Assembly: GCA_002171015.1 (NCBI GenBank)
Contig: NHHP01000001.1
Span: forward strand, 4,641-68,640
From: Candidatus Pelagibacter sp. TMED166
Lineage (GTDB): Bacteria > Pseudomonadota > Alphaproteobacteria > Pelagibacterales > Pelagibacteraceae
Direction: 5' to 3'
Length of the DNA stretch: 64,000 nucleotides
Part shown: one piece after another, positions 28,687-64,000 of the stretch
How the letters are laid out: the number at the start of each line of letters is the position of its first letter
How positions within the stretch are numbered: position 1 is the stretch's first letter
Translations under genes and position numbers: made by a program
The notes under the pieces: model-generated
Seen by the model: the letters and a program-made list of their open reading frames with translations, nothing else
What the model was told of the DNA's origin: nothing
The model's database searches: none

Positions 28687-31600
28687 ATGGGATTTTTACC
28701 AAAGCGTTTAACATTACAGAATCTAGACCAAGTAAGTGTTTTCATCGAAGACACCGATAATCAATATTTTAACGTACAACACCTGCCAGAGACCCTAAGT
28801 CAAGGTAGACATGCTTTTAAACTATTTGGCTCGAACTTACTACGTGAAGGGATAGAATTAAAAATGGAGTTACTCGATTCTGAGGGTAACACTATTTTCA
28901 TGACACCTGTTGATTTTATAGGTGAAGAGACCCCACCGCATACCCCATATAGATATGTAACGATTGAAGTTTACTCCCCACCAATAAATTATCCTGGTAT
29001 CGCGACTCTGACCATTCTAGGTGAATTGAATCCTAATTTAGTCGATGTACCTATAGAATTTCAAAATGCGTACAACGTTAGATATCAGGTAGATATTGAT
29101 GTTGATTTATCAACAATTGTTAACACTCAACCTATTAGATTTTTTAAGAATCCAACTACAGAGTTTCAAGAGGTTGTTCAGGCAAAAACAGTACTATCTC
29201 CAATTAGTGAGTCAATTGTAAAGACAACCGCGAACGGATTGACAAGGTCGGATTTAAAAGGTTCGGTCATTGAGATACAATCAGGTAGTCTTGAGAAAGA
29301 AGCTCTACCTAATTCTGTTTCGGATACATTTAAGGATATCAGACGTTTTAAGGATGAGTTTAAATATAAGACAGGTCTAAGAGGTAAGGTTCCTAGCATT
29401 ATAAAAAGACGAGGATTGTCTAGAAGGTTCGCGTCTTTGGAACAACCAAAGTTTAAAATCAAAACATCAGCTGCGACATTTAGATCTGATATGCAGGGTG
29501 GGACGGTAGAAATTGGTAAACACGATGTAAAAATATTCACGGTCGATAGTATAACTGGTCAGACAAAGGAGAAGGTCGTAACCGTACCAAGATTCAAAAC
29601 CAAGATTCTAGAGGTTCTTGATGATAAGACAATCATACCAGAAGAACCACCTATAGTATTTTTACCAACTGGTAGTCAACCTTCAAACACCGACATACAA
29701 GAAGCTACGATAGAGGATTTCTCAAGTGCACCTATTACAGCATCTTTCAGTGCTGCTGATAGTTCACCATCCCAATCAATAGTAAACTTCGATTCCTTAC
29801 TTGATTTAACAATCAAGGATATGAGGACTTTTTCTGGTGATATATATAGGATACGAGTTCATGGAAAAAGTGAGGCTGCTGGTTCAGATTTCACAGTATT
29901 GACTGATGTCATAGTAGAATCACCAGAGTTATTAAAGGATGTAGATTCTCCGTCTGGTGTGCTACGAACAGGTTATTTTATCAATCAGTCACATATCAAT
30001 ACCTATTTAAACAAATTTTCAATGGACGGAACCACCAAGGGTACTAATGTAATATCAAACTATAATTCATCAAACATTATTGACGCTATAAATATTAGTG
30101 GTTCCAACCTAGGTTTGAATCAAAGTGTGGTCGTTGAAACTAAAATAGGACAATCATTTACCATTAGAAAGGATGTTACCTATACTTTATCGGCAAAAGT
30201 TAAAGGACAGATAAAAGACAAAGTTTTAGATGATAGTGGAACTGTTTCAAGAAAAGGTAAATTATATTTCCATCTGTCTGGTTCGAATATAAATGATTCA
30301 TCTCTCGTAACATCTCACAATAGATTTGGGTTTGAACTTAGGGATGAGGCGACCGGAGAGCCTGTTGTTTTACAATTAGATGAAGATATAGATGGTATTC
30401 AAAACTTCGAAACAATAGAACATACTTTTAAACCAAAATTTAATCTAGATAGGACTGTAAACACAGATACAGTCTTACAGTTGAGAGCTGAGTCTGGTGA
30501 ATGGTTTATAAGTGATTTATCTCTTAGACCAGCAATGGACACTGGATTCTCACCTGATGAATTTGATTTAAAAGTTCCGATACCGAGGTCTATAAGACCT
30601 GATAGATTTGATTTTCTAATAGAATATTTTGATATCAACAACAACGTGGCTGAAACCGTTACGGTATTACAAGATGTACCGATATCTGGTTCAGCATTGG
30701 TAATCGATGGTGATGGTAACCTTTTGACAGGATCTTTATTCCTAGGTAACGCTGTTGATTCAGGTATTGAAGCTGCTGGTGTAAACTCGGCATTCGTTAG
30801 GTCTGTTGGATATGAGGGTTTTGAAAGTGCATCTCTAGGTGGTAAGGGTGGATTCATGATTTTCAGCGGTTCTGTCTTACCCGACGCACCTGATAATTAT
30901 GTAGGTGCTGGTATTGAGATACATGATGGAACCACAGGTGTTGATGAAAGTTTTCTAAAATTTAGAACCAATCCATCACAGTTCGATGTTAAGACCTCGA
31001 CATTCTTTTTAGGTAAAAAATTAAATCCAGCAAATTTCATAAGTGGGTCTAACGGTAACCTACAAATATCCTCATCTAATTTTGAGTTGACCGCAGATGG
31101 TGATGTGACGATGTCTGGTGAGATTTCTGCTACTGGTGGAGCAATAGGTGGTTTTGATATCGGTAGTTCAACAATTTCTACCACGGGTGTCGTTCTTGGG
31201 GACTCATCAGAGGATTTATTTATTAGCTCAAGTGCTTTTAAAGTAGACCATAGTGGTAACATAACTGCATCTAATATAGATTTGGGTGGTACAATAAGTG
31301 CTACAAGTGGTGATGTTGGTGGATTTCAAATCAATGCAGGTTCGTTGACATCTGGTACCGGTGATAGTGCGATAACCATGAGTAGTGCTGATAAATTAAT
31401 ATCGATTGGTAGTGGTTCTACTTTCAATAAAGGTGATTTACGAGGTGGGTTTAGAGCCGGAATAGATACCGATGGAGTGTTCAAATTTGCTATTGGTAAT
31501 TCTGATTCATTCATACACGTTGATAACGATGGAGTAAGTATCAAGACAGAGGACATCAATGTTACAGCTTCGTTATTGAATATTGATGTCGATATATTTA

Positions 31601-34600
31601 GACTTAACGCTAATAATTTATTTATAAGTTCAAGTGAAGGTGGTATAATATCAGCTGGTAATCCTAGACCAACCGATATAGACGGAACCAATAAAGGTTT
31701 CTTCGTCAATGGTAGTACTGGTAAAGTGTTATTAGGTAATTCCAATGGTAGTCATATAAAATTTGATGGGACTAATACGAGTATTTCGTCATCGGCTTTC
31801 TTCCTAGGTTCGGAAGCTCAATTCGTAAGTGGTTCGAATGGTAATATAGAAATAAGTTCTAGTAATTTCCATCTCACAAATGCTGGTGATGTTACGATGG
31901 CTGGAACTATTACCGCGACCGCTGGTCAATTGGGTGGATTCGGAATCAGCAGTGACGCGATATCATCTGATAATTTCTTTATAAGTGGTGGAGCTGAGAA
32001 TAATGAATTCTTTATCTCATCATCAGCGTTCAACGTAAAAGCTAGTGGAAATGTTACAGCTTCAGCATTACAACTTAGTGGTGGTAGTGCAGGTGGATTG
32101 GTCGTAAGTGCTGGACAAATCGGTGTCGGTGAAATTCTGAAACTAAAGGATAGTGGACAGATAACAGGTTCGTCGGTTTTATTCACAGGTGGTAAGATAG
32201 CTTCATTTGATATAACAGATAATGTATTGAGTAACTCCCCAAACTTTTTTATAAGTGGTTCAGCGACAGGTAATAATTTTTTCATATCATCATCTAATTT
32301 CAACGTTAAGGCAAGTGGTGATGTATCAGCTTCAGCTATTCTATTAGGTGATAAAAGTGGTGGTCAATTTTTACAATTCGCGGGTGATACATTAACCGTA
32401 CAAGGTAATATATCTGCTGATAGTATATCGACCCCATCAGCAGCGGCTACACCTAGCTCGTCTTTATCATCAGATGGTCTGTTGAAAACAGTATCGGCTT
32501 CAATCGGTGGTTTTGAAATTGATGACCACAGTATACGAACAAGCGGTATAGAATTCAATAACTCAACACAACCTATATTCATAAGCTCAAGTGCTTTTAA
32601 AGTAGACCATAGTGGAAATGTCACTGCTAGTAATGTTGATTTAAGTGGTAAGATAACGGCAACTAGTGGAGAAATCGGTGGATTTAATATCGATAGTGAT
32701 GAAATAAAAAGTGGAACAAATATTAGTTTGAATTCAAACAACAAATCATTATCGATAAACAATAGTACGTTTGGAAATACCGGTATACAATTACAGTTCA
32801 ATAGTGGTACACCAAGAATGTTCGTTGGACAACAATTAGGTGAGTTCTTCAAGTTCGATGGAACTAATGTAGAAGTCAGCTCATCAAAATTTTTCTTCGG
32901 TAACAATACTAATTTTATAAGTGGTTCGTTGGGTAACATCAGTATACAGAGCAGTGGAGTTACCACCTTAAGTGGAAGTCAAGTCACAATACAAACACCA
33001 AAATTTTTCTTTGGTGGAGACTCACAATTCATAAGTGGTTCTAATGGCAATATAGAAATAAGTTCTAGTAAGTTTCATATCCAACCAGATGGTGATGTCA
33101 TCACAAACGATATTACCGCATCAAACGCAAACGTTAGTGGTAAGATAACCGCTACTTCTGGTGAAATCGGTGGATTCACGATAGGTGATGATTTATCAAA
33201 TAGTGCTGGTAGTACATTGAAACTCAAAGGTAGTACCGGTCAGATTACAGCCTCGGCAGCAAACATAACTGGTGATATTACTGCCGATACAATCACAGCT
33301 AATACAGCTGGGACTATTGCTAACTTCGAAATTAGTTCTACGGAAATAAAATCATCGAACAACCTTTTAAGATTGAAGTCAAATGGACAGATTACAGGTT
33401 CATCAGCACAAATCGCAGGTAACATTACTGCCACAAGTGGTCAAATAGCTGGATTTACAATTAGTGGTAATGAGTTGACCGCAACTAATTTTACTTTAGA
33501 CGCGAGTGGTAAATCGATATCACTTGGAACTGGTAATACAATTTTTATAGCGGATGCTGATGAAGGTATACAACTAGGACATGCCTCTTTCAATAGTGCT
33601 CCGTTTAGTGTAACTAAGGCTGGAGAGTTGAAAGCAACATCAGGCACTATTGGTGGTTGGAGTTTAAGTGCAAACACAATAGTAGGTGCTAATCTAACTT
33701 TAAATTCAAGTGGTCTGATAGAAACAAATGATTTCGCAAGTGGAGTCAAAGGTTTCAGATTAGATTCTACCAACAACGGACAAGCCGAGTTCGAGAATAT
33801 ATCGATTCGTGGTACTTTGAAAACAACAGTATTCGAAAAAGAAACTGTAAACGCTGTTGGTGGTCAGTTATATGTTGCGAACTCTACAACACTTACTGGT
33901 TCTTTAGCCATATCCGCTAGTGCAGCTACGATGAGTGTCGTCAATGTTACCGGTTTTACAGGTAGTTATGCGAATGATGGTGAAATACTAGTTGCTAAAA
34001 AAATAACCGACACAGGTTTTTCAACAGAATATATTTTAGTACAAAGTGCGTCACGAGATAATCCGTCAAGTGATACCGATTTCTCTGGTAAACTATTCGT
34101 TGTCAGAGGATATCAAAGTGGTAGTAGTGGGGACTTCCTAGGTGATAACGCTAATTTGTCTCAATCATTGGCACCTGGTCAGGTATTGGCTTCAACTGGT
34201 AGGATAGGAACAGGTTATATCAGATTAAATGCTAATCCAAATGATACCACAACACCATTTATAGATATTGTTGAAAGAACTGGTAGTGGTGTATTCGATG
34301 TAGATTTAAAAGCTAGACTCGGTGATTTGAGTGGGTTGAGTACAACGAAGTTACATGGAACCGACCCAGCAAACGCTGGTTTCGGACTCTACAGTCAAAA
34401 TGTTTTTCTCGAAGGTGGGATAGTTGCCAACACAGGTTCTATCGGTGGTATAGAAATGGAAGCTGGTAAACTATACAACGGAGTTGGTGTACACGGAAAT
34501 TCTAATACAGGTTTTTATGTCGATAGTTCCAGTAAATTTAGTTTGGGTGATAAGTTGGTTTGGGATGGAAGTGATTTATCTGTCGAAGGTTCAATAACCC

Positions 34601-37600
34601 TAACAGGTGGGACTGGAGTAGCCACCCCATCGGATGTATCCGCGAGTTTGAATGCATCATCGAGTGCACTACAGGATAACATAGATAACGTTGAATCCAA
34701 TGTATCAGGTGCTTTTACAGAAACATCAGCGTCTATCGCTACAGATTTAAATACAGTTGAATCCAACATATCGGGTGCTTTCACAGAGGTATCAGCTTCG
34801 ATAGTCCAAAACATAGTAACCGATATAAGTGGTTCGATACTAGATATTCCACCGGCACCTGGTGGTGAGGGTTTATTTTTAAACTTCCCACACATGGGAT
34901 ACTTTAGTGGTAGTGAATTTACAGCTTTCATATCAGCAAGTGGTGGTTTCCTATTCAAAGCTGATGACAACAATCTGATATCTTTTGGACAGACTGTAAC
35001 AGGTGGAGACGGAATAGATAGTAAATCGTTTGTTCTTAAATCAGATAACGTATTCCTAAGTGGTTCAAAGGTAAACATTCTAGGAGAAAGATTTTTCTTG
35101 GGTGGTCAGTCACAATTTGTTAGTGGTTCGAACGGAAATATTGAAATAAGTTCATCTAGGTTTCATGTGAAACCCGATGGTGATATAGTGGTTCAGAAGG
35201 TTACGGCTACAGAGGGTAGTATCGGTGGTTATACAATAGATGGTCATAGTATATCTACCACCGGTGTTGAAATTAACGATTCCACACAACCAATATTTAT
35301 AAGTTCAAGTGCTTTTAAAGTTGACCATGTAGGTAATGTCACGGCTAGTAACGTGGACTTATCAGGTAAGATTACTTCAACGGAAGGTAGTATCGGTGGA
35401 TTCGATATAGGCTCATCTCAGATATCGAGTTCAACCGGTGGATTGATTTTAAACTCAGATGGTGGTATCACGGGCTCTAAGTTTTTATTAGAAGGCGGTA
35501 TCATTACCGATAGTGTAACGATAGAAGGGTCGTTATCAGCTAACTCAATATCTACACCGACAGGTGGTTCACCCTTGGCTCAGATAACCGACCAAGGTTT
35601 CGCTAAGTTCGTATCAGCGTCGATTGGTGGATTCGATATATCACAAACTGAAATCAAGGATACAGACGAAGACTTAATTTTAAAATCAAGTGGACAAATC
35701 ACTGCATCTGCAGCACAGATAACTGGTGAACTCAACATTACCGGTGGTGCCACCAAAACCCAATTGGATGTCATAGGTCAACAAACCGCATCATTGGATG
35801 CTAGTGTATCCGCGATAGGAGCAACGACCGCATCATTGAACACAGCGACTGGATCACTCCAATCAGATATCGATACAGGTCTGGCATCAGTCAGTTCATC
35901 GGTATCAGGTGCTTTTACCGAAGCTTCAGCTTCGTTGGCAACAAATCTTAACACCGTAGAAGCCAATGTATCGGGTGCTTTTACTGAGGTATCTGCTTCC
36001 ATTGTTGAAAAAATTGTAACGGATTCAACCGGTTCAATTTTAGAAGTCCCACCATCACCAGCGGGAAGTGGATTGTATTTAAATTTTCCACACATGGGAT
36101 TCTACGATGGAGCGGAACCAGCAAGTACGACATATATCGTTACAGCACCGGGTGGTTCGGGTGGTGGATTCTACATAGATGGTGTTCAGAGAGCAACATT
36201 AGAATTACAAGTAGGATACACCTATAGATTTAATACCTCTGCTGTTGAGGGTTCTCATCCGTTTAGATTTTCAACAGATTCTGATAATGATAATGCTTAT
36301 ACAACTGGTGTTACGGTTGGTAGTGGATACGTAGATATAGTGGTTACTTCAAGCACACCATCAACTCTATATTATTATTGTACGGCACATGATGGTATGG
36401 GTGGACAGATAAATGTCGTGGATAACTCAGAGTATAAAGCTTTTATATCAGCATCTGGTGGATTTCTATTCAAAGCTGATAACAATAATCTGATATCCTT
36501 TGGTCAATCCGTAGATGGTGGGGATGGAACTTCAACGAAATCATTCGTGCTTCGGTCTGATAATGTTTTCCTAAGTGGTTCTAATGTAAATATTTTAGGG
36601 GAGAGGTTTTTCCTCGGTGGACAGGCACAATTCATTAGTGGGTCGAATGGTAACCTAGAAATTACCTCAAGTAACTTTCATCTAGACAGAGATGGTAATG
36701 TCACATTGGATGGAACTATAACGGCTACAACCGGTGAAATCGGTGGATTTAGTATATCTTCAAACTCCATATCAAGTTCGAATGATATTTTACAATTAAA
36801 ATCAAGTGGTCAGATTACCGCATCAGCAATACAACTTACTGGTGAGGTCAACATAACAGGTGGTTCGGCTAAATCACATTTGGAGCAAATCGGAGAATCA
36901 ACAGCATCATTGAATACGAGTGTTGTTGCAATCGGACAATCAACTTCATCCCTTGACGCGAGTGTTGTATCGATAGGTCAACAAACCGAATCTTTGGACA
37001 ATAGTGTTATTTCTATTGGTGAGAAATCCGCATCATTAGACGCAAGTGTTGTTTCCATAGGAGAATCAACAGCATCTCTAACTACTGCCTCACAATCTAT
37101 GGCGGCTAGAGCTTCATTGACTGCGACAGGTTTGGATATATTTGATAGTGGTAGTAATAGGATTGCTGAGTTTAGTGGAAATGTCACAATAGGTAAAACC
37201 GCGTTTCCAGAGAACAACGTTTTTATCGATAACGATAGTGTTGAAATCAGAAGAGGTTCACAGGTATCGGCTTCCTTTGGTTCAACGACGACGATTGGCC
37301 CAACATCCAACAAACACGTCAAAATAACAAGCGATGCATTGGAGATTAAAACCGATGCCAATACAACGGTTCTATCGGCATCTGCTGCAGGTTTGGAAAT
37401 GGTCGGTACGATTAATGCCAGTGCTGGTGATATCGGTGGATTCGGTATATCGGCGACAACAATCAGTAGTTCTAATTCAGATTTGATATTGAACTCCAAC
37501 GGACAGATAACCGCTTCAGCGGTATCGATGTCAGGTGCGATTAATGCGACTAGCGGTTTGATTGGTGGTATGAGGATTGAATCCAACAGCATAGAGAGTG

Positions 37601-40600
37601 GTGCGGATTCAGGCGATGGTTCGGTGATAACCTTGACCGTGACAGCTCAAGATAGTAATTATTTCATCATAGACGGAGTCAATCAACCAACGTTGACATT
37701 CCTACCTGGTAACACCTATAGGTTTGATTTATCGGATGATTCAACTAATGGTCATCCTTTCAGATTTGCCACATCTGGTGATGGTAGCGGTACTGTTGTG
37801 TACACCGAGGGTGTGACATCGAGTGGAACTCAAGGAGATCCTGGTGCGTATCGACAGATAGCCGTGACACAAAATACTCCAACGAATTTATTCTATAGAT
37901 GCACAAATCATAGCGGTATGGGTAATTCAATTACCGTCGATAAAACCTCTCCGTTGATACTAGATGGTAACACAGGACAGATCAGTGGTTCTAGATTTCT
38001 TTTCACGGGTGGTAAGATTAGCGGTTCTAGTGTCGAGATTGATGTTGAAAACGTTAAGATAAGCGGTAGTTCGGTAGATATCGCCACACCTAAGTTTTTC
38101 CTAGGCGGTGGTGGACAATTCATAAGCGGTAGTAATCAAAACATTGAGATTAGCTCTAGTAACTTTCATCTACAACCCGATGGTGATGTTGTGATGAGCG
38201 GTACTGTCACGGCAACAACAGGTGAGTTAGGTGGTTTCGCGATAACACCGACTGCAATATCTGAATCCAACAACCGTTTAATATTAAGGTCGGATGGTAG
38301 GATTACGGCTTCGTTCATGCAAATGACCGGTGAAGTAAACATAGTCGGTGGTTCTGCTAAAACTCATTTAGAATTAATCGGTGAACAGACCGCGTCGTTG
38401 AATACGAGCGTGGTTTCGATTGGAGCTCAAACTGCATCTCTTGACACAAGTGTTGTATCGATAGGAGCACAGACTGCGTCATTAGATGCTAGTGTAGTTT
38501 CAATCGGTGAGAAATCCGCATCGTTGGATACTAGTGTCGTATCGATAGGAGCACAGACTGCATCATTAGATGCGAGTGTTGTTTCGATAGGGGCACAAAC
38601 AGCGTCATTGGACACGAGTGTGGTTTCAATAGGTGCGACTACGGCTTCGATACAAACCGTAACCGCTTCTCTACAGGTAGCTTCAGCGTCAATGGCGTCA
38701 ACCGCGGCATTGACAGCGACTGGTCTAGACATTTTCGATAGCGGTAGTAACAGAATTGCACAATTTAGTGGTAACGTTACGATAGGTAAGACAAGTTTTC
38801 CTGAAAATAATGTTTTTATCGATGAAGATTCTGTGGAGATACGTAGAGGTTCTCAGGTATCGGCGTCGTTTGGAAGCACAACAACCATAGGCCCAACCAC
38901 GGATAAGCATGTAAAAATTACATCAGATGCTTTGGAGATTAAAACAGATTCCGATACAACTGTTTTATCAGCATCCGCAGCTGGTCTGGAGATGGAGGGT
39001 ACGGTTAGAGCAACTGCAGGTGAAATTGGTGGATTCACAATAAATTCTACAGAGATAAGTGCTAGTGGATTACTGTTAAAATCAAGTGGACAGATAACAG
39101 GTTCAGCTGCTAATCTTAGTGGTAGCTCGGTTGATATAAGAACACCGAAGTTTTTCTTAGGTGGCAGTGGACAATTTGTAAGTGGTTCAAATGGAAACAT
39201 TGAAATAAGTTCATCTAAGTTTCATGTGAAACCAGATGGTGATATTGTGGTTAGAAAGGTTAATGCTGATGATGGTACAATCGGAGGTTTTAAAATTGCA
39301 AATACATTTTTAACATCAAGTGCAGGTAGTGGTTTTGGTATTTTAATTGCAGAGCCAGATACAAATCCAACAAATGATTTCAATATAGATGAAGATGGAG
39401 CATTGGGTATATCATTTGGTCTACATCGAAGACCTAATGGTACAACCTATACTTTAAATACATCAAATATGGATTTAGACAATGCTACTAATTATCCAAA
39501 TTTATGGGTAATGGGTTCTGCTACTGATAATGAAAACATAATATTTAGAGTTGGAAAATCAGGTGGTGAGGGTATCAGATTTGAAAACGAAAAGATTGAA
39601 GTAAGTTCTTCAGCATTTTTACTTGGTGATAAGAATAGTAATTTCGTAAGTGGTAGTAATGGTAACATAGAGATAAGTTCATCTAAGTTTCATGTGAAAC
39701 CAGATGGTGATATAGTAGTTAGAAAAGTAGATGCTGTTGAAGGTTCTATATCAGGATTTTCAGTTGAAAATAATAAATTACTAGGTCGTACAGTTTCGGA
39801 TTTTAGTGGTACGGTTATAACATCTTCTGTTTTATTTACACCTGATGTTGAAAATACTGGAGGACTAGGAGGCATACCAGCAATAGGCATAACTGCAATG
39901 AGTGGTTCGGTAATGGGAGCTGGGTTTAGTGTATTATGTAAACCAAACGATGACGAGCTTGGTGTTGACTTTAGAATTGGCCAAGCAACAGGTGAAGGAA
40001 TAGCTACTGGAACAGGTGGATTAAGAATTGTAGCTGTACAGAAAGAAGATGGTTCGGATGATTTTGGTTACTCGGTAAACGGTCAAAGTTTTACAGATTT
40101 CACCTCAGGTTCATCTTTTAATTTTGGCGGTGCAGGAAATGGCTTGAGTTATGGTCTCACCGGTAATAGATTCAAATACCTAATGGGTAAGAGCAGTGGT
40201 GCTCATTTAAAATTTGATTCTGCTGTAAATGAATTATGGATTAGTTCTTCGTATCAAAATATGGAAACTGATATAGGTAAGACAGTAATTTATGGAAATT
40301 CAGTATCTGCTTCAAGAAGTACAGCGATAAGTGACCTAAACTCATACACTACAAGTTCGTTAAGTCATCTTCATCTTGATGGGTTAACATTCAATACCGC
40401 AACTAGTGTTCGTTCAGCACTTCTAGGAGCTGCAGATGGAGAACAACATTCAATAACATTTAACAGACTGTTATATTTTGAGAGTACTCAAGGTGGTGAA
40501 AGCATGCGCCTTAGTCGTAATAGTGAAGTTGTTATTGCAGGTGCATTATCTAAGGGTTCTGGTACATTTAGAATATCACATCCAGATCCTAAAAAGAATG

Positions 40601-40941
40601 AAAAGTATTATTTACAACATTCGTTTGTAGAGTCGCCAACTCGTGGAGATAATATTTATAGATGGCAAATAGATGTTAAGGAAAAACGACACACAATTAA
40701 ATTACCTGATTATTATAAACATTTAAATGAGAATGATATGGTTTGGATAAATGCAGTAAAACATTTTGGTAAGGCTTATGGTGAAGTAAATGTAGAACAA
40801 ACAGAACTAACAATACATACCGATACTGATGGATTATACAATGTTCTATTGATTGGAACACGAAAAGATGAGGTAGCAACAAAAGCATTTGCAGGTGTAG
40901 AACCATCAAAATCTTATATAAAAGAATTAGAGGAGAAATAA
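28687..40941 (+). CDS. giant repetitive tail-fibre-like virion protein (4084 aa)
   Basis: One uninterrupted ORF. It has at least 9 copies of a 45-50-aa module, FFLGG.QF(V/I)SGSNGNIEISSS.FH..PDGD....(I/V)TAT.G.IGGF.I. It also has 14-aa coiled-coil-like repeat arrays, two about 105-aa cupredoxin-like inserts, and a non-repetitive C-terminal domain (about 40480-40938). Confidence 0.85.
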   Translation: MGFLPKRLTLQNLDQVSVFIEDTDNQYFNVQHLPETLSQGRHAFKLFGSNLLREGIELKMELLDSEGNTIFMTPVDFIGEETPPHTPYRYVTIEVYSPPINYPGIATLTILGELNPNLVDVPIEFQNAYNVRYQVDIDVDLSTIVNTQPIRFFKNPTTEFQEVVQAKTVLSPISESIVKTTANGLTRSDLKGSVIEIQSGSLEKEALPNSVSDTFKDIRRFKDEFKYKTGLRGKVPSIIKRRGLSRRFASLEQPKFKIKTSAATFRSDMQGGTVEIGKHDVKIFTVDSITGQTKEKVVTVPRFKTKILEVLDDKTIIPEEPPIVFLPTGSQPSNTDIQEATIEDFSSAPITASFSAADSSPSQSIVNFDSLLDLTIKDMRTFSGDIYRIRVHGKSEAAGSDFTVLTDVIVESPELLKDVDSPSGVLRTGYFINQSHINTYLNKFSMDGTTKGTNVISNYNSSNIIDAINISGSNLGLNQSVVVETKIGQSFTIRKDVTYTLSAKVKGQIKDKVLDDSGTVSRKGKLYFHLSGSNINDSSLVTSHNRFGFELRDEATGEPVVLQLDEDIDGIQNFETIEHTFKPKFNLDRTVNTDTVLQLRAESGEWFISDLSLRPAMDTGFSPDEFDLKVPIPRSIRPDRFDFLIEYFDINNNVAETVTVLQDVPISGSALVIDGDGNLLTGSLFLGNAVDSGIEAAGVNSAFVRSVGYEGFESASLGGKGGFMIFSGSVLPDAPDNYVGAGIEIHDGTTGVDESFLKFRTNPSQFDVKTSTFFLGKKLNPANFISGSNGNLQISSSNFELTADGDVTMSGEISATGGAIGGFDIGSSTISTTGVVLGDSSEDLFISSSAFKVDHSGNITASNIDLGGTISATSGDVGGFQINAGSLTSGTGDSAITMSSADKLISIGSGSTFNKGDLRGGFRAGIDTDGVFKFAIGNSDSFIHVDNDGVSIKTEDINVTASLLNIDVDIFRLNANNLFISSSEGGIISAGNPRPTDIDGTNKGFFVNGSTGKVLLGNSNGSHIKFDGTNTSISSSAFFLGSEAQFVSGSNGNIEISSSNFHLTNAGDVTMAGTITATAGQLGGFGISSDAISSDNFFISGGAENNEFFISSSAFNVKASGNVTASALQLSGGSAGGLVVSAGQIGVGEILKLKDSGQITGSSVLFTGGKIASFDITDNVLSNSPNFFISGSATGNNFFISSSNFNVKASGDVSASAILLGDKSGGQFLQFAGDTLTVQGNISADSISTPSAAATPSSSLSSDGLLKTVSASIGGFEIDDHSIRTSGIEFNNSTQPIFISSSAFKVDHSGNVTASNVDLSGKITATSGEIGGFNIDSDEIKSGTNISLNSNNKSLSINNSTFGNTGIQLQFNSGTPRMFVGQQLGEFFKFDGTNVEVSSSKFFFGNNTNFISGSLGNISIQSSGVTTLSGSQVTIQTPKFFFGGDSQFISGSNGNIEISSSKFHIQPDGDVITNDITASNANVSGKITATSGEIGGFTIGDDLSNSAGSTLKLKGSTGQITASAANITGDITADTITANTAGTIANFEISSTEIKSSNNLLRLKSNGQITGSSAQIAGNITATSGQIAGFTISGNELTATNFTLDASGKSISLGTGNTIFIADADEGIQLGHASFNSAPFSVTKAGELKATSGTIGGWSLSANTIVGANLTLNSSGLIETNDFASGVKGFRLDSTNNGQAEFENISIRGTLKTTVFEKETVNAVGGQLYVANSTTLTGSLAISASAATMSVVNVTGFTGSYANDGEILVAKKITDTGFSTEYILVQSASRDNPSSDTDFSGKLFVVRGYQSGSSGDFLGDNANLSQSLAPGQVLASTGRIGTGYIRLNANPNDTTTPFIDIVERTGSGVFDVDLKARLGDLSGLSTTKLHGTDPANAGFGLYSQNVFLEGGIVANTGSIGGIEMEAGKLYNGVGVHGNSNTGFYVDSSSKFSLGDKLVWDGSDLSVEGSITLTGGTGVATPSDVSASLNASSSALQDNIDNVESNVSGAFTETSASIATDLNTVESNISGAFTEVSASIVQNIVTDISGSILDIPPAPGGEGLFLNFPHMGYFSGSEFTAFISASGGFLFKADDNNLISFGQTVTGGDGIDSKSFVLKSDNVFLSGSKVNILGERFFLGGQSQFVSGSNGNIEISSSRFHVKPDGDIVVQKVTATEGSIGGYTIDGHSISTTGVEINDSTQPIFISSSAFKVDHVGNVTASNVDLSGKITSTEGSIGGFDIGSSQISSSTGGLILNSDGGITGSKFLLEGGIITDSVTIEGSLSANSISTPTGGSPLAQITDQGFAKFVSASIGGFDISQTEIKDTDEDLILKSSGQITASAAQITGELNITGGATKTQLDVIGQQTASLDASVSAIGATTASLNTATGSLQSDIDTGLASVSSSVSGAFTEASASLATNLNTVEANVSGAFTEVSASIVEKIVTDSTGSILEVPPSPAGSGLYLNFPHMGFYDGAEPASTTYIVTAPGGSGGGFYIDGVQRATLELQVGYTYRFNTSAVEGSHPFRFSTDSDNDNAYTTGVTVGSGYVDIVVTSSTPSTLYYYCTAHDGMGGQINVVDNSEYKAFISASGGFLFKADNNNLISFGQSVDGGDGTSTKSFVLRSDNVFLSGSNVNILGERFFLGGQAQFISGSNGNLEITSSNFHLDRDGNVTLDGTITATTGEIGGFSISSNSISSSNDILQLKSSGQITASAIQLTGEVNITGGSAKSHLEQIGESTASLNTSVVAIGQSTSSLDASVVSIGQQTESLDNSVISIGEKSASLDASVVSIGESTASLTTASQSMAARASLTATGLDIFDSGSNRIAEFSGNVTIGKTAFPENNVFIDNDSVEIRRGSQVSASFGSTTTIGPTSNKHVKITSDALEIKTDANTTVLSASAAGLEMVGTINASAGDIGGFGISATTISSSNSDLILNSNGQITASAVSMSGAINATSGLIGGMRIESNSIESGADSGDGSVITLTVTAQDSNYFIIDGVNQPTLTFLPGNTYRFDLSDDSTNGHPFRFATSGDGSGTVVYTEGVTSSGTQGDPGAYRQIAVTQNTPTNLFYRCTNHSGMGNSITVDKTSPLILDGNTGQISGSRFLFTGGKISGSSVEIDVENVKISGSSVDIATPKFFLGGGGQFISGSNQNIEISSSNFHLQPDGDVVMSGTVTATTGELGGFAITPTAISESNNRLILRSDGRITASFMQMTGEVNIVGGSAKTHLELIGEQTASLNTSVVSIGAQTASLDTSVVSIGAQTASLDASVVSIGEKSASLDTSVVSIGAQTASLDASVVSIGAQTASLDTSVVSIGATTASIQTVTASLQVASASMASTAALTATGLDIFDSGSNRIAQFSGNVTIGKTSFPENNVFIDEDSVEIRRGSQVSASFGSTTTIGPTTDKHVKITSDALEIKTDSDTTVLSASAAGLEMEGTVRATAGEIGGFTINSTEISASGLLLKSSGQITGSAANLSGSSVDIRTPKFFLGGSGQFVSGSNGNIEISSSKFHVKPDGDIVVRKVNADDGTIGGFKIANTFLTSSAGSGFGILIAEPDTNPTNDFNIDEDGALGISFGLHRRPNGTTYTLNTSNMDLDNATNYPNLWVMGSATDNENIIFRVGKSGGEGIRFENEKIEVSSSAFLLGDKNSNFVSGSNGNIEISSSKFHVKPDGDIVVRKVDAVEGSISGFSVENNKLLGRTVSDFSGTVITSSVLFTPDVENTGGLGGIPAIGITAMSGSVMGAGFSVLCKPNDDELGVDFRIGQATGEGIATGTGGLRIVAVQKEDGSDDFGYSVNGQSFTDFTSGSSFNFGGAGNGLSYGLTGNRFKYLMGKSSGAHLKFDSAVNELWISSSYQNMETDIGKTVIYGNSVSASRSTAISDLNSYTTSSLSHLHLDGLTFNTATSVRSALLGAADGEQHSITFNRLLYFESTQGGESMRLSRNSEVVIAGALSKGSGTFRISHPDPKKNEKYYLQHSFVESPTRGDNIYRWQIDVKEKRHTIKLPDYYKHLNENDMVWINAVKHFGKAYGEVNVEQTELTIHTDTDGLYNVLLIGTRKDEVATKAFAGVEPSKSYIKELEEK
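36112..36426 (+). other. cupredoxin-like domain 1 inside the giant fibre (aa 2476-2580)
   Basis: ...GYTYRFNTSAVEGSHPFRFST...LYYYCTAHDGMGGQINV. His2524, Cys2565, His2568 and Met2571 sit in the H...C-x2-H-x2-M spacing of type-1 copper sites (amicyanin-type short loop). Confidence 0.6.
36895..37104 (+). repeat. in-frame 42-nt (14-aa) tandem repeat, 4 full + 1 degenerate unit
   Basis: ESTASLNTSVVAIG / QSTSSLDASVVSIG / QQTESLDNSVISIG / EKSASLDASVVSIG / ESTASLTTASQSMA. Confidence 0.85.
37624..37941 (+). other. cupredoxin-like domain 2 inside the giant fibre (aa 2980-3085)
   Basis: ...GNTYRFDLSDDSTNGHPFRFAT...LFYRCTNHSGMGNSITV, with His3023, Cys3072, His3075, Met3078. Confidence 0.6.
38383..38676 (+). 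repeat. in-frame 42-nt (14-aa) tandem repeat, 6 full + 1 degenerate unit
   Basis: (E/A)QTASL(N/D)(T/A)SVVSIG repeated six times, with one EKSASLDTSVVSIG variant, then ATTASIQTVTASLQ. Confidence 0.9.
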
Positions 40942-41425: not shown

Positions 41426-44400
41426 ATGAATAAATTGACCGAATGGTTGACAAAACCATTTTTAGAAAAAGATATTATCAAAGAGGGTGTCAGAGATCCT
41501 GGTATCTTCAAAGCTATATTTTTAGCTGGAGGACCTGGTAGCGGTAAATCATTCGTAGCACAGAAGTTATTCGGTATACCAGAGAAGATAAATGTATCGA
41601 AGACTGGTCTGAAGATGGTAAATCAAGATAACGAACTTGAACTTTTGTTAAAAAAGTATTTTGGTACAACTGATATTGACAATATGCCTGATGAGTTATT
41701 TCAAGATTTGACTGGTGTGGATAAACAAGGTAAACCCGTAGATTACGACACGAGTGGATTAAGAAAGTTTGCTAAATCTTTAAGTAAAGAAAGATTAAGA
41801 CTTTACACCAATGGAAAGTTAGGTGTTATCATAGATGGTACTGGACATAACTTTGGTAAGATTAAAAAAAGAAGAAAAGAATTGATGGATTTAGGATACG
41901 ATACCTATATGGTTTTTGTAAATACCTCATTAAAGATTGCTAGAGAAAGAAATGAAAAAAGAGATAGGGTCGTACCAGACGCTATTGTTAAAAAAAGTTG
42001 GGAAGATGTACAATCAAATTTAGGTGCCTTTCAAGGTTTATTCGGTGGTTCTAACTTTATGATTGTTCAGAATAACAAGATGTTATCAGATGCTCAGATA
42101 AAGAAACATTTTAAGATGTTGGTCAGTAAAGGTATAGATTCATTTTTAAAGAAACCAATTAAGAGTAAGGTTGGTAAAGCTTGGTTACGAAGAGAAAAGA
42201 AACATCAAAAGGTATTTAAAGATCCTGGCCAGTCAAAGTTTTTTGAATCTATAAATATTCCGATAAAAGTAGGTGATACAATCCTTACCGGTAGATTTAA
42301 AAACAAAAAAGTTGTTGTAAAATCAATCGGAAAAGACGACCACGGTATGCCCACAATAAATGGAAAAAAGATAACAACAATTCGTACGATGAAAAACGTT
42401 GATGAGGCACCTAGGGTTCCTAGAAAGAAAGGACAACATCGTGGTTCAAAGTCTCATTCAGATTTATATACGGATGAGAATCCAAAAGGAACAATCAAAG
42501 GATTGAAGTTTGCTACGGTTAAAGATGCAAAAGCATCAGTCAGTAAAATAAATGGAAGTGGTAAAACTCACGCACATAAGATACAAGCAGCTGTAGCTAT
42601 GGAACAGAGAGCTAAAGAAATGGGTAAAGCTTCTCAAGCGGCTGTATATAGAACTTATATCAATAAGATGAAAAAGAAAACAAAAGAGAAAAATGAAGAA
42701 TTTGGATTACCTGCTGGTGAGATACCATCACCAAGTCGTAAGATGGTAAAGAAGATGAAGAAACGTGGTAACACATCGGTTCCCTACGGTAGTGGTTACA
42801 AGAAAGTAAATGAAAATGATAAAGCTGAGTTATACAAATTGTATAGTATGGGTATGAAAGCATTTTCTGGTAGTGCTAAACATAAAGAAATACTAAAGAA
42901 GATAAAAGTTCTAAGAAAAAAATTAGGTATGAATGAACAAAAAGAAATCAAAAAAACTATCGGTATATTCGGTGGTAGATTCCAACCGTTTCATAGTGGA
43001 CATTTAGCCACATATAAATGGTTATCTAAACAAGTGGATGAAGCTTATATAACAACTTCTAATATTAAACAACTTCCAAGACACCCAATGGACTTCAAGG
43101 AAAAAGTCCGTCACATGGTAAAGATGGGTATTCCAAAGAATCGTATTGTTCAAGAAAGAACACCTTATGTAGCAGACAAAGTTTTAAAGAAATTTAATCC
43201 TAATACCACTGCTGTAGTTTATGCTTTTGGACAAAAAGATGCTGGTAGATTAAAAGGTGGTAAGGGTAAATACTTTCAAGATTATAAAAAAAGTAGAGAG
43301 GATATCCGAGGATACAAAGAACATGGATATTTTATCACTGCACCACAATTTGGTGACATGAGTGGTACTAAGATGAGGTCACTATTGGGTGACCCTAGGA
43401 TAGATGATAAAGAAAGAAGAAAATCTTTCAAAAAAGTTTTCGGATATTTCGACCAAGGTATCTATAATATGATGACCAATAAATTCAGAAAGTTATACGA
43501 GGGTATAGAGGACTTTATACTCAAAACAGATTTTAAAGAATTAGTCAACGAAGCAAGTTTAACAGCGATAAACCCAACAGATGATGGCCCACCAACTTTC
43601 TACAGAGGTTTCAATGATTATAAGAATCAATCCAAAAGATGGTTGGATGATATGTACGGTGATACTGGTTGGGAAGTCGTACAATATATTTTAGGAAAAC
43701 ATGCTATAAATCCTGATTATGATTACACCCTTAAATACAACGTAGTTCCTGCTGTAGCTTATGGTCGTAAACAATCTGGTAAATATGGTACTAGATTTGG
43801 TACAGACAATCCAATAAAATCCTATAAAAATTATATAGAAGGAACTGTATTGCATAATATTGGGTATGAGTTGGTAAAATGGATGGGTATTACACCAGAT
43901 GGTAATAATTATACTGGTGTAGAGGTGGAGACTCCAGTGGTACCAGGTATCGGTGATGATAATGTTGGTAATACAGAAAAACAAAAATTAAAACTAAAAG
44001 AGATAAATTTAAATGAAGAAGTAGAAATATTGATTGGGGAAAGGAAAAAACTTTTACCGTCAAGAGACCACAAATATGTTTCGATTGGTTTCGGTAGGTA
44101 TAAATTAAAAGGTAAGGAAAACGAAGACGACGCCGATGTATATTTCAAATCAAAAGATGGAACTTATATAAAATCAAATGACCAAAAAAGTGATAATAAA
44201 AATTTTAAAGAAGGTGTATTACTAGAGGGTGGAGCTTACGGACATTTGAACCATCCTTTTGATGACAAAAATCTTACATTTTCAGATTTTAAAACACTAA
44301 TTATTAATACCCTACAAGGTAAATTAGACAAAGAGGGTGCAGTCACAGAAAAAACAGATGGTCAGAACATAATGATAAGTTGGAAGAACAATAAACTTAT

Positions 44401-47949: not shown

Positions 47950-47952
47950 AAA

Positions 47953-63103: not shown

Positions 63104-64000
63104 ATGAGCAATCCCAAATACATAGGTAAAAACATACTCGACCATGAACTTTTGGTTCGTAATGGTAATATAATTGGTGACCATACCGAGATTATAAGGG
63201 TTGTCGTCCAAAGCACAGCTCAAGGAAATAAATATGTGTTTTTAGGTGGAATTGCACCTGACCTTACTTTGAGTGAGGGTAAAACCTATAGGTTCGACCA
63301 ATCAGATAGCACGAATACCAACCATCCGTTTAGGTTTAGTACGACTTATAACGGAACTTGGGGTGGTGGTTCGGCCTACACAACAAATGTTACGGTTCAC
63401 GGAGTACCAGGTGTTAAAGGTGCGTATACGGAAATAAAGGTTACCAAGGTCACTCCAAACTTTCTTTATTATTATTGCACCCAACATTCAAATATGGGTA
63501 TATATAACGATAAGGCTGGAAAGTTTCTTAAAAATGATTTGAATAATCTACATAGGGTAAGTGGTTCATCAACCTCAACTGGTTCGTTTGGTGATGGTAG
63601 ATTTGCAGGAAATGTCGGTATCGGAAATGTAAATCCACCAGAAAAGCTAACCGTAACTGGTGACATAAGTGCAAGTGGTGATTTTCATTTAGATGGTCAA
63701 GCTGGTTTTGGTGTGGCACCAAATACTGATTATGCTGCTGTTTTCCAACAACCTACTGGTACAAATAAAGATTACATACAAGGTGTTCAAGATAATGGTA
63801 GTAATACTGCTTTTAGGATTGATACCGATAGTGGTGATAATGTATCCCTAAGATTATACAACGGAAGTGGTGTTCAAAAAATTCATTTAAATGCTGGTGG
63901 AACTTCAACATTTGAAGGAAGTGTAAGTGGTTCATCAACCTCAACTGGTTCGTTTGGTAGAGGGTTTATTGTAGATTCGTTAAATCTTAATAATAATGCA
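63104..64000 (+). CDS. fibre-like protein with N-terminal cupredoxin-like domain (3' end outside window; not in ORF track)
   Basis: ATG at 63104, one nt after the upstream stop, open for 299 codons to the window edge. GKTYRFDQSDSTNTNHPFRFST...FLYYYCTQHSNMGIYN gives His74, Cys125, His128, Met131. Downstream it is a Gly/Ser-rich fibre. Confidence 0.75.
   Translation, partial: MSNPKYIGKNILDHELLVRNGNIIGDHTEIIRVVVQSTAQGNKYVFLGGIAPDLTLSEGKTYRFDQSDSTNTNHPFRFSTTYNGTWGGGSAYTTNVTVHGVPGVKGAYTEIKVTKVTPNFLYYYCTQHSNMGIYNDKAGKFLKNDLNNLHRVSGSSTSTGSFGDGRFAGNVGIGNVNPPEKLTVTGDISASGDFHLDGQAGFGVAPNTDYAAVFQQPTGTNKDYIQGVQDNGSNTAFRIDTDSGDNVSLRLYNGSGVQKIHLNAGGTSTFEGSVSGSSTSTGSFGRGFIVDSLNLNNNA
63191..63508 (+). other. 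cupredoxin-like domain 3 (aa 30-135 of truncated ORF)
   Basis: Same H...C-x2-H-x2-M-G pattern and TYRF/HPFRF blocks as the two inserts in the 4084-aa protein. Confidence 0.6.

What the first reader, a model, noticed from the sequence alone, without database searches (positions are those of the whole stretch)
37624..37941. Second cupredoxin-like insert in the same fibre, with diverged sequence but identical ligand geometry
Seen: aa 2980-3085 read VITLTVTAQDSNYFIIDGVNQPTLTFLPGNTYRFDLSDDSTNGHPFRFAT...NLFYRCTNHSGMGNSITV. From my manual alignment I estimate roughly 40-50 percent identity to insert 1. All four putative ligands are retained (H3023, C3072, H3075, M3078), as are the TYRF and HPFRF blocks. 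Retention of exactly these positions across diverged copies argues for selection on the metal site.
Basis: partly seen in the sequence, partly recalled or inferred. Interest (0 to 1): 0.6.

Follow-up and report, generated by a model that had tools for sequence, protein, structure and literature searches.

The report
Blue-copper-type domain in phage fibre
A giant fibre-like protein of a marine-type phage carries a second small domain with the fold and all four metal-binding residues of blue copper proteins; this copy sits at the same place in related phage fibres, so these virus particles probably carry a bound metal, most likely copper, whose role is untested.

Summary
Window 37624-37941 encodes aa 2980-3085 of a 4084-aa ORF, exactly as quoted. 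It is 43-45% identical to copy 1 (36127-36426) and to a third copy in another ORF (63197-63523). H3023, C3072, H3075 and M3078 are present.

An AlphaFold2 model (pLDDT 92) matches only cupredoxins among its 50 best PDB hits. The ligands lie where type-1 copper ligands lie, with amicyanin's C-x2-H-x2-M spacing.

- **Family size:** 7783 cluster representatives match the module. In the isolate-phage collection it is in 294 records, nearly all named for marine hosts. Pfam and NCBIfam do not cover it, and I found no paper describing it.
- **Ligand conservation:** among 418 homologous domains the His/Cys/His triad is all present (327) or all absent (70). Only 21 are partial. Met is kept either way.
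- **Cysteine scarcity:** two of the protein's three cysteines are the ligand cysteines.
- **Selection:** median dN/dS among close homologues is 0.16. Between the window copies dS is saturated.
- **New for copy 2:** it and its flanks are collinear with giant-fibre homologues on three other viral contigs. The copy-1 site is empty in those homologues.

Copper binding itself is untested. This scan has reported the same module before, on copy 1 of this window and on other genomes.

The parts
28687..40941 (+). 4084-aa Ser/Gly/Thr-rich repetitive ORF (giant fibre-like virion protein) that hosts copies 1 and 2
   Evidence: ORF list and translation. It is 56-58% identical over long stretches to giant ORFs on viral contigs L004, L008, L012 and L036. 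The L004 homologue ends in a Peptidase_S74 tail-fibre chaperone domain. Only 3 Cys occur in 4084 aa. 'Fibre' is an inference for the window protein itself.
37624..37941 (+). Copy 2 of the cupredoxin-type module (the finding), aa 2980-3085
   Evidence: Translation. AF2 model with pLDDT 92.4 and 9 strands. The Foldseek PDB top 50 are all cupredoxins. The BFVD top hits are cyanophage tail-fibre and virion proteins at TMq 0.8-0.88.
37753..37755 (+). Codon of His3023, the putative N-terminal copper ligand in the GHPFRF block
   Evidence: invariant column H48 of A4. It lies just before strand E50-53 of the model.
37900..37920 (+). Ligand loop C3072-T-N-H3075-S-G-M3078 (C-x2-H-x2-M) between the last two strands
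   Evidence: The best PDB profile hit is pseudoazurin, aligned over YxCxxHxGMG (E 0.18).
37555..37623 (+). Upstream flank GLIGGMRIESNSIESGADSGDGS, conserved entry junction of copy 2
   Evidence: It is collinear with L004, L008 and L012 (IGGM....GDG[ST]) in alignment A5.
37942..38028 (+). Downstream flank KTSPLILDGNTGQISGSRFLFTGGKISGS, conserved exit junction of copy 2
   Evidence: Alignment A5. The window's own paralogous segment starting at aa 3342 (nt 38710) lacks the module together with about 179 aa.
36127..36426 (+). Copy 1 of the module, aa 2481-2580 (ligands H2524, C2565, H2568, M2571)
   Evidence: It is a clean insertion between LNFPHMGFYDG and SEYKAFISASGG, relative to the uninterrupted paralogous junction at nt 34879-34947. 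The same junctions are uninterrupted in L004, L008 and L012.
63197..63523 (+). Copy 3 of the module, aa 32-140 of a second large ORF (63104 onward, at least 1380 aa, running past the window)
   Evidence: Its only cysteine is the ligand Cys125. The region matches tail-fibre and baseplate PHROGs 30742, 693 and 708.

Best explanation
Window 37624-37941 encodes a roughly 105-residue cupredoxin-fold module with an intact type-1 (blue) copper ligand set: His3023, then Cys3072-x2-His3075-x2-Met3078 in the loop between the last two strands. It is spliced into a loop of one repeat unit of a giant phage fibre-like protein. It belongs to a very large, unnamed family of modules found in tail-fibre, baseplate (gp9-like) and other virion proteins of marine phages.

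Most likely mechanism (inferred): each module binds one metal ion, most probably copper. Because virion proteins fold in the cytoplasm, the metal is perhaps picked up only after lysis. The ion clamps the C-terminal loop to the His-bearing strand. The module would then be a rigid beta-sandwich knob attached to the fibre shaft by the end that carries both termini, with the metal end pointing outward.

The metal-site end is the most conserved part of the module, and the module is shared by phages of unrelated hosts. I therefore read it as a generic metal-stabilised decoration or adhesion module, not a host-specific receptor-binding tip.

Shown: sequence, fold prediction, ligand conservation, insertion junctions and distribution. 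Inferred: metal identity, loading route, orientation and role.
For: - **Sequence and numbering:**
- **Fold:** the AF2 model has pLDDT 92.4 and pTM 0.86. All top 50 Foldseek PDB hits are cupredoxins with probability 1.0 and TMq 0.5-0.6. They include engineered short-loop (CTPHPFM, CAAHAAM) azurin and pseudoazurin variants.
- **Ligand topology:** His lies before strand 5 of 9, Cys ends the penultimate strand, and Met starts the last strand.
- **Conservation:** 4 of the 9 invariant columns in 58 sequences are the ligands.
- **All-or-none triad:** 327 domains have all three of His/Cys/His, 70 have none and 21 are partial. Pairwise Fisher p is 1e-60 to 1e-78, not corrected for relatedness. The Pro after His1 is present in 95% of ligand-bearing domains against 19% of ligand-less ones.
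- **Cys avoidance:** two of the 3 Cys in 4084 aa are ligand Cys. The single Cys in the copy-3 protein (at least 1380 aa) is the ligand.
- **Purifying selection:** median dN/dS is 0.16 over 180 close homologue pairs.
- **Positional orthology:** copy 2 plus flanks is collinear with three other viral contigs at 53-61% identity over 217 aa, with ligands kept in all.
- **Distribution:** 294 phage records match, named almost entirely for Synechococcus, Prochlorococcus, Pelagibacter and Methylophilales phages or as marine/uncultured, in tail-fibre or structural genes. There are 7783 cluster representatives. The gp9 baseplate connector of P-RSM4 ends in an intact module. S-TIM5 gp134, annotated 'virion structural protein and packaging', carries one.
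- **Weak profile support:** multi-copy homologues P0005 and P0009 reach the Pfam PF00127 cut-off, 23.5 and 22.3 bits against 21.2.
Against: - No metal-binding data exist for any family member, and no solved structure matches.
- This copy has no significant Pfam, NCBIfam or PDB sequence hit to cupredoxins.
- Cupredoxins are normally metallated outside the cytoplasm, whereas virion proteins fold in the cytoplasm, where free copper is essentially absent.
- About 17% of family domains lack the triad but keep the fold signature, so a metal is not needed for the fold.
- The residue after His1 is Pro, not the Asn typical of classical type-1 sites.
- That the window protein is a tail fibre is inferred from composition, repeats and homologues. 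No annotated phage protein matches its N- or C-terminal regions well.
Confidence: 0.6

Rival explanations
1. It is a metal-free beta-sandwich decoration. The conserved His, Cys, His and Met are packing or folding residues of a cupredoxin-derived scaffold that no longer binds metal, as in ephrins or copper-less phytocyanin-like proteins.
For: - 70 of 418 family domains lack the His/Cys/His triad yet keep Y32, F34, the Met-Gly pair and other core positions.
- Met is retained in 86% of those domains.
- The protein folds in the cytoplasm (established knowledge).
Against: - The triad is all-or-none, with only 21 of 418 intermediates. Packing residues would be expected to drift one at a time.
- Cys is otherwise almost absent from these proteins.
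- The spacing and strand positions are exactly those of a type-1 site.
Confidence: 0.15
2. The site binds a metal other than copper in the virion, for example Zn(II), and acts purely as a structural clamp. Type-1 sites accept Zn, Co, Ni and Hg in vitro.
For: Zinc is far more available than copper in the cytoplasm where the protein folds (established knowledge). The ligand set alone does not discriminate between metals.
Against: A His2-Cys-Met set in a cupredoxin fold is otherwise characteristic of copper. Retention of the weak axial Met is typical of copper sites, although Met is also kept in ligand-less copies.
Confidence: 0.17
3. The module is the host-specific receptor-binding tip of the fibre, and the conserved residues merely hold a variable binding surface.
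For: In podovirus Pelagibacter phage Baldr the module lies near the C-terminal end of the putative tail fibre. In P-RSM4 gp9 it is the C-terminal domain.
Against: - In this protein both copies are internal, about 1000-1600 aa from the C-terminus.
- Closely similar modules (45-60% identity) occur in phages of cyanobacteria, SAR11 and OM43, which argues against host-specific recognition.
- The metal-site region is the most conserved part, and variation is concentrated in other loops.
Confidence: 0.05
4. It is a redox-active electron carrier used during infection, that is, an auxiliary metabolic plastocyanin-like function.
For: It has a full type-1 ligand set. Cyanophages are known to carry separate plastocyanin (petE) genes (own knowledge).
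Against: - The module is embedded in giant structural proteins and in annotated virion, tail-fibre and baseplate proteins.
- It has no signal peptide and is never found as a dedicated soluble carrier in gene neighbourhoods of electron-transport genes.
- It also occurs in phages of non-photosynthetic SAR11 and OM43.
Confidence: 0.03

Closest known systems
Amicyanin, pseudoazurin and plastocyanin (single-domain type-1 blue copper proteins; Pfam PF00127, cupredoxin clan)
   Same: - It shares the Greek-key beta-sandwich fold.
- One His lies on an internal strand, and Cys, His and Met lie in the loop joining the last two strands.
- The C-x2-H-x2-M spacing is that of amicyanin, the shortest natural loop.
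- The YxCxxHxxMxG signature aligns with pseudoazurin.
   Different: - It is not a free soluble periplasmic or lumenal electron carrier. It is an internal module of a 4084-aa phage virion protein with no signal peptide.
- This copy falls below every Pfam threshold.
- Pro replaces the usual Asn after the first His.
- It has an extra N-terminal hairpin, giving 9 strands.
- No redox partner is evident, and copper binding is untested.
Rusticyanin and AcoP of Acidithiobacillus ferrooxidans (best structural matches)
   Same: These are the top Foldseek hits, E 6.5e-5 to 7e-4 and TMq 0.51-0.60. They are cupredoxins with additional N-terminal strands.
   Different: Sequence identity is only 12-20% and rmsd is high at 5-8 Å. 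They are acidophile periplasmic redox proteins with different loop lengths.
Unnamed module in marine phage tail-fibre and baseplate proteins (regions of PHROGs 30742, 693, 708, 27200; e.g. P-SSM2 tail fiber-like protein Q58M60, S-TIM5 gp134, P-RSM4 gp9, fibres of Pelagibacter phages Baldr and Mosig and Methylophilales phage Melnitz)
   Same: These are direct homologues at 35-60% identity, with BFVD TMq 0.8-0.88. They have the same ligand set and the same kind of host protein.
   Different: Here two copies sit deep inside a 4084-aa fibre rather than near an end. Annotations call the host proteins 'tail fiber' or 'virion structural protein' and give the module no name.
Copper-less cupredoxin-fold adhesion or signalling domains (ephrins, early-nodulin-like phytocyanins)
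   Same: The cupredoxin fold is used as an extracellular interaction or decoration module. The family here also contains ligand-less copies.
   Different: This copy keeps all four ligands. No sequence relationship was tested, so the comparison rests on my own knowledge.
Metal sites in phage tail fibres (HxH iron sites of T4 gp37) and the 'Ferrojan Horse' hypothesis
   Same: Both involve a metal bound in host-contact fibres of phages, with a proposed ecological role in the ocean (abstract of bioRxiv 10.1101/674382).
   Different: Those sites are inter-chain His-coordinated iron within the fibre shaft. They are not an autonomous cupredoxin domain, and the metal and fold differ.

Membership tests
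Cupredoxin fold (type-1 blue copper protein superfamily) | Greek-key beta-sandwich of 7-9 strands | tested here: met
   The AF2 model has pLDDT 92.4 and nine strands. All top 50 Foldseek PDB hits are cupredoxins, with probability 0.98-1.0.
Cupredoxin fold (type-1 blue copper protein superfamily) | Ligand set of one upstream His plus Cys-Xn-His-Xm-Met in the loop between the last two strands | tested here: met
   H3023, C3072, H3075 and M3078 are present. They are invariant in 58 homologues. Their positions relative to the predicted strands fit. C, H and M align to amicyanin's ligands (weak).
Cupredoxin fold (type-1 blue copper protein superfamily) | The four side chains converge on one site at coordination distance | not testable with these tools
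   The structure tool returns no coordinates, and no solved structure of a family member exists.
Cupredoxin fold (type-1 blue copper protein superfamily) | Binds copper, with a ~600 nm S(Cys)-to-Cu charge-transfer band and small A-parallel in EPR | not testable with these tools
   This needs protein chemistry.
Pfam PF00127 Copper-bind (plastocyanin/azurin family) | Profile score at or above the gathering threshold (21.2 bits) | tested here: not met
   This copy gives no PF00127 hit. Only 8 of 58 close homologues hit weakly, best E 0.0034. Multi-copy homologues P0005 and P0009 reach 23.5 and 22.3 bits by summing over domains.
Pfam PF00127 Copper-bind (plastocyanin/azurin family) | Asn following the first His ligand (second-sphere hydrogen bond network) | tested here: not met
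   The residue is Pro in this copy (HPFRF) and in 95% of ligand-bearing family members.
Marine-phage fibre/baseplate cupredoxin module (unnamed; parts of PHROGs 30742, 693, 708, 27200) | Significant profile or sequence similarity to the module in annotated phage tail proteins | tested here: met
   tblastn finds 294 phage records, best E 2e-27 at 59.6% identity to the Pelagibacter phage Baldr tail fibre. Copy 3 hits the PHROGs at 1e-7 to 5e-23. BFVD matches reach TMq 0.8-0.88.
Marine-phage fibre/baseplate cupredoxin module (unnamed; parts of PHROGs 30742, 693, 708, 27200) | Residence in a virion tail or fibre protein | tested here: inconclusive
   Homologues of the host protein exist on viral contigs, and one ends in a Peptidase_S74 fibre chaperone domain. 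The window protein itself has no annotated homologue outside the module and no proteomic evidence.
Ig-like phage decoration domains (Hoc/BIg/FN3 type) | Ig-like fold and profile | tested here: not met
   No Ig, FN3 or BIg Pfam hit was found. PDB sequence hits to antibody V domains are chance-level (E 0.6-3.6) and rest on the YYC motif. The fold search returns cupredoxins, not Ig domains.

The most novel reading that the evidence does not exclude
The type-1 copper centre is an active part of infection rather than a passive clamp. For example, fibre or baseplate behaviour could be gated by the metal or redox state of the exposed site, sensing the oxidising or Cu-bearing micro-environment at a cell surface. 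Alternatively, the Cu-loaded module could be recognised by a host surface component. Either would make copper a cofactor of adsorption for a large fraction of marine phages, including cyanophages, pelagiphages and OM43 phages.
Probability: 0.1. Interest if true: 0.85.

Novelty: new variant of a known kind. Interest (0 to 1): 0.6.

Why it matters
If the site really binds copper, many abundant ocean viruses would carry a redox-active metal centre on their host-contact machinery. These include T4-like cyanophages and SAR11 and OM43 phages. I found no paper that describes this, and Pfam and NCBIfam do not cover the module.

It would be a second example, besides iron in T4-type fibres, of a metal built into phage fibres. 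It would also give a simple handle for studying virion stability and adsorption in seawater, through chelators and Cys or His variants.

The claim has limits. My own rough arithmetic assumes about 1e10 virions per litre and tens of sites per virion. That gives sub-picomolar site concentrations, far below nanomolar dissolved copper. The module is therefore unlikely to matter for bulk copper speciation.

For this particular finding the added value is evolutionary. Copy 2 sits at the position conserved across related giant fibres, and copy 1 is a later lineage-specific insertion. The ligand set has thus been retained in separate lineages and in separate insertion contexts.

Tried and rejected
- **Sequence-profile assignment.** Pfam, NCBIfam and the PDB sequence search give nothing significant for this copy. 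The only Pfam hit is PF25489 'At5g54830-like' at E 0.02. The cupredoxin call therefore rests on fold prediction.
dS is 1.4-1.5 or not computable because of saturation, so the ratios are meaningless. I used close homologue pairs instead.
- **Phylogeny of the module.** With 77 rows and 109 columns, a quick tree places copies 1 and 2 with the modules of the homologous giant fibres (SH-aLRT 93) and copy 3 elsewhere. AU tests reject none of three groupings: all three window copies together, copies 1 and 2 together, or copy 2 with its positional orthologues (p 0.58-0.79). The constrained trees even scored better than the free quick search. The tree cannot say whether the copies are in-genome duplicates, so I relied on flank collinearity.
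- **Nucleotide search of phage records** with 2.2 kb around the site found no match.
- **N- and C-terminal parts of the giant protein against phage records** gave only one weak hit each.
- **Cellular occurrence.** The genome-collection scan found only 8 loci, all in marine MAGs or SAGs. The two I examined have phage tail and virion gene neighbours. I did not confirm the claim in earlier notes that the module occurs on surface proteins of cells.
- **Ig-like domain reading.** Rejected.
- **The search for related loci with alignment A4** failed for lack of a conserved stretch. It was repeated with A3.
Full report
**1. Observation**

It is residues 2980-3085 of a 4084-aa ORF at 28687-40941. Residues 3023, 3072, 3075 and 3078 are His, Cys, His and Met.

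A six-frame motif scan finds three copies of the module in the window:
- copy 1 at 36127-36426, in the same ORF;
- copy 2, the finding;
- copy 3 at 63197-63523, near the N-terminus of a second large ORF. That ORF runs past the window and is at least 1380 aa on the contig.

Pairwise identity is 41-45%. The TYRF and HPFRF blocks and C-x2-H-x2-M are shared by all three. The distance from His to Cys differs between copies, 48 residues against 40. 'Identical geometry' is therefore true of the C-terminal ligand loop only. Three-dimensional geometry could not be measured because no coordinates are returned.

**2. Setting**

The window is a phage region:
- terminase and portal genes at 46360-49794, with the closest portals in Microcystis phage Mel-JY01 and Flavobacterium phage immuto at about 55% identity;
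- an SbcC-like nuclease upstream of the giant ORF.

The window lies on contig C6 of an 847-kb, 7-contig assembly. C6 (GC 0.356) and C3 (GC 0.365) differ in composition from the other contigs (GC 0.27-0.29). The phage DNA therefore sits inside an assembly of an AT-rich small-genome bacterium. This could reflect an infected cell or a binning artefact, and I could not tell which.

The giant ORF has little similarity to annotated phage proteins outside the module. It is 56-58% identical over long stretches to giant ORFs on viral contigs L004, L008, L012 and L036. The L004 homologue ends in a Peptidase_S74 intramolecular chaperone domain (E 2.6e-16), a hallmark of trimeric tail fibres and spikes. 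'Fibre' is thus a reasonable inference for the window protein, not a demonstrated fact.

**3. Is it a cupredoxin?**

Sequence profiles do not say so for this copy. There is no Pfam cupredoxin hit, only PF25489 at E 0.02. NCBIfam gives nothing, and so does a PDB sequence search.

Weak signals do point to the right place:
- The best PDB profile hit is pseudoazurin, aligned over YxCxxHxGMG (E 0.18).
- 8 of 58 close homologues touch PF00127.
- Two multi-copy homologues reach its cut-off.
- hhalign puts C, H and M on amicyanin's C92, H95 and M98 (E 0.014).

The decisive evidence is the fold. An AlphaFold2 model was built on 58 sequences, namely the three window copies and 55 copies from viral contigs. 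It has mean pLDDT 92.4, pTM 0.86 and nine strands. All of its 50 best Foldseek matches in the PDB are cupredoxins: rusticyanin, AcoP, azurin, pseudoazurin, multicopper-oxidase and CuA domains. They include engineered proteins carrying amicyanin-type short ligand loops.

In the model:
- the first His lies just before an internal strand;
- Cys ends the penultimate strand;
- the second His is in the loop;
- Met begins the last strand.

This is the canonical type-1 copper arrangement.

**4. Are the ligands under selection?**

- **Invariant columns.** In the 58-sequence alignment (mean column identity 60%), only nine columns are invariant. Four of them are the ligands.
- **All-or-none pattern.** I examined 418 unique complete domain instances from 266 more distant proteins. 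Of these, 327 have His, Cys and His, 70 have none of the three, and 21 have one or two. Pairwise association gives Fisher p of 1e-60 to 1e-78. These values are not corrected for relatedness, and many ligand-less copies are tandem repeats in a few proteins, so the number of independent losses is smaller.
- **Co-varying residue.** The Pro after the first His tracks the triad, 95% against 19%.
- **Methionine.** Met is kept in 98% and 86% of the two classes. Its conservation is therefore structural at least in part.
- **Cysteine scarcity.** The 4084-aa protein has three cysteines and two are the ligand cysteines. The copy-3 protein has a single cysteine, which is the ligand.
- **dN/dS.** Between the window copies it is uninformative because dS is saturated. 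Among 180 close pairs of viral homologues the median is 0.16.

**5. Is it an insert, and what is special about copy 2?**

Copy 1 is a clean insertion. The paralogous segment at aa 2065 reads LNFPHMGYFSG|SEFTAFISASGG. At aa 2465 the same junction is interrupted by about 105 residues. The same junction is uninterrupted three times in L004 and also in L008 and L012. Copy 1 is therefore specific to this lineage.

Copy 2 lies in a roughly 179-aa stretch that is missing from the window's own near-identical paralogous segment beginning at aa 3342. Its entry and exit junctions are IGGM...GDG[ST] | module | ...L.L[DN]G..GQI[ST]GS...GG.ISGS. Both are collinear with L004, L008 and L012 at 53-61% identity over 217 residues, and all retain the four ligands. 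Copy 2 thus occupies the position conserved in this fibre family.

A tree of 77 modules groups copies 1 and 2 with the modules of these homologous fibres (SH-aLRT 93) and places copy 3 elsewhere. AU tests cannot reject alternative groupings. The history of the copies stays open.

**6. The family**

- A profile of the three copies finds 7783 cluster representatives at E ≤ 1e-3. Some carry up to 26 tandem copies. Co-occurring domains include collagen repeats, laminin-G/ConA-like and F5/8-C domains.
- In the isolate-phage collection of 50,697 records, 294 records match. They are named almost entirely for Synechococcus, Prochlorococcus, Pelagibacter and Methylophilales phages, or as marine or uncultured. 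The matches lie in genes annotated as tail fibre, virion structural protein or gp9 baseplate connector.
- BFVD structure matches tell the same story.
- Short homologues in the large protein collection are all 'hypothetical' and have no Pfam domain.
- The genome collection gave only eight loci, all in marine MAGs or SAGs. The two I examined have phage tail-gene contexts.
- No paper in the searchable library combines cupredoxin or blue copper with phage tail fibres.
- This scan has noted the same module repeatedly. Examples are copy 1 of this window (e1-3862033) and other genomes (e1-3448678, e1-1062812, e1-4211931). My results agree with those notes.

**7. Mechanism**

Shown: the fold prediction, the ligand set and its concerted conservation, the insertion junctions, and the distribution.

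Inferred: the module binds one metal ion, most likely copper, which locks the C-terminal loop onto the His-bearing strand. In plastocyanin-type cupredoxins both termini lie at the end opposite the metal site. This comes from established structural knowledge and was not measured on this model. By that analogy the module would be attached to the fibre by that end, with the metal end pointing outward.

Two observations shape my reading of the role. The region around the metal site is the most conserved part of the module, and similar modules serve phages of unrelated hosts. I therefore favour a generic metal-stabilised decoration or adhesion role over host-specific receptor recognition.

The main difficulty is metallation. 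Virion proteins fold in the cytoplasm, so copper would have to be acquired from host trafficking or from seawater after lysis.

Rival readings are scored in the report sections: a metal-free scaffold, zinc or another metal, a receptor-binding tip, and an electron carrier.

**8. Verdict**

The module is a known fold and metal-site type in an undescribed context: phage fibres and baseplates, a family-specific His-Pro motif, and no profile coverage. I rate it a new variant of a known kind. The decisive tests are biochemical, namely copper binding by the domain and copper in purified virions.

Noticed in passing
window 37117-37476 and 38710-39069 (aa 2811-2930 and 3342-3461 of the giant ORF): Two blocks of about 120 aa are nearly identical as protein. 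After them the first copy continues into the stretch that holds cupredoxin copy 2, and the second does not.
   Followed up: partly
window 28687-40941: The 4084-aa protein contains only three cysteines (2565, 3072, 3751). The third, at aa 3751, lies outside any recognised module.
   Followed up: partly
L004:5350-6057 versus window 40000-40938: The homologous giant fibre on viral contig L004 ends in a Peptidase_S74 intramolecular chaperone domain (E 2.6e-16). The window protein's C-terminal ~310 aa have no Pfam hit and only a weak match to a hypothetical protein of cyanophage S-TIM54. The distal end appears to have been exchanged between related fibres.
   Followed up: partly
G000 contig C3 (outside the window): C3 is a 116-kb contig with GC 0.365, against 0.27-0.29 for the bacterial contigs. 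It has an outlying tetranucleotide profile and giant same-strand ORFs of 5453, 3296, 2008 and 1442 aa. It may be the rest of the same phage genome (C3 + C6 = 188 kb). It contains no cupredoxin module.
   Followed up: partly
window 41426-45451: A 1341-aa ORF directly after the fibre gene combines PHROG matches to an ATPase, a cytidyltransferase and a polynucleotide-kinase-like family. This is an unusual fusion sitting between structural and packaging genes.
   Followed up: no
window ~36900-37100 and ~38480-38700 (aa ~2745-2800 and ~3270-3340): There are runs of a 14-residue tandem repeat (SVVSIGAQTASLDT and variants), with about 8 units in the second run. They lie just upstream of the duplicated blocks (seen in the translation).
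   Followed up: no
L097:514-1746 (Prochlorococcus phage P-RSM4 gp9): The annotated baseplate wedge/tail-fibre connector gp9 of a T4-like cyanophage ends in an intact His/Cys/His/Met module as its C-terminal domain. The module therefore also sits on an annotated baseplate protein.
   Followed up: partly
L008 and L012 (viral contigs): The homologous giant fibres there carry two modules only about 217 aa apart. The second is a shorter (99-aa) variant ending MGNSI[ST]V, like window copy 2.
   Followed up: partly
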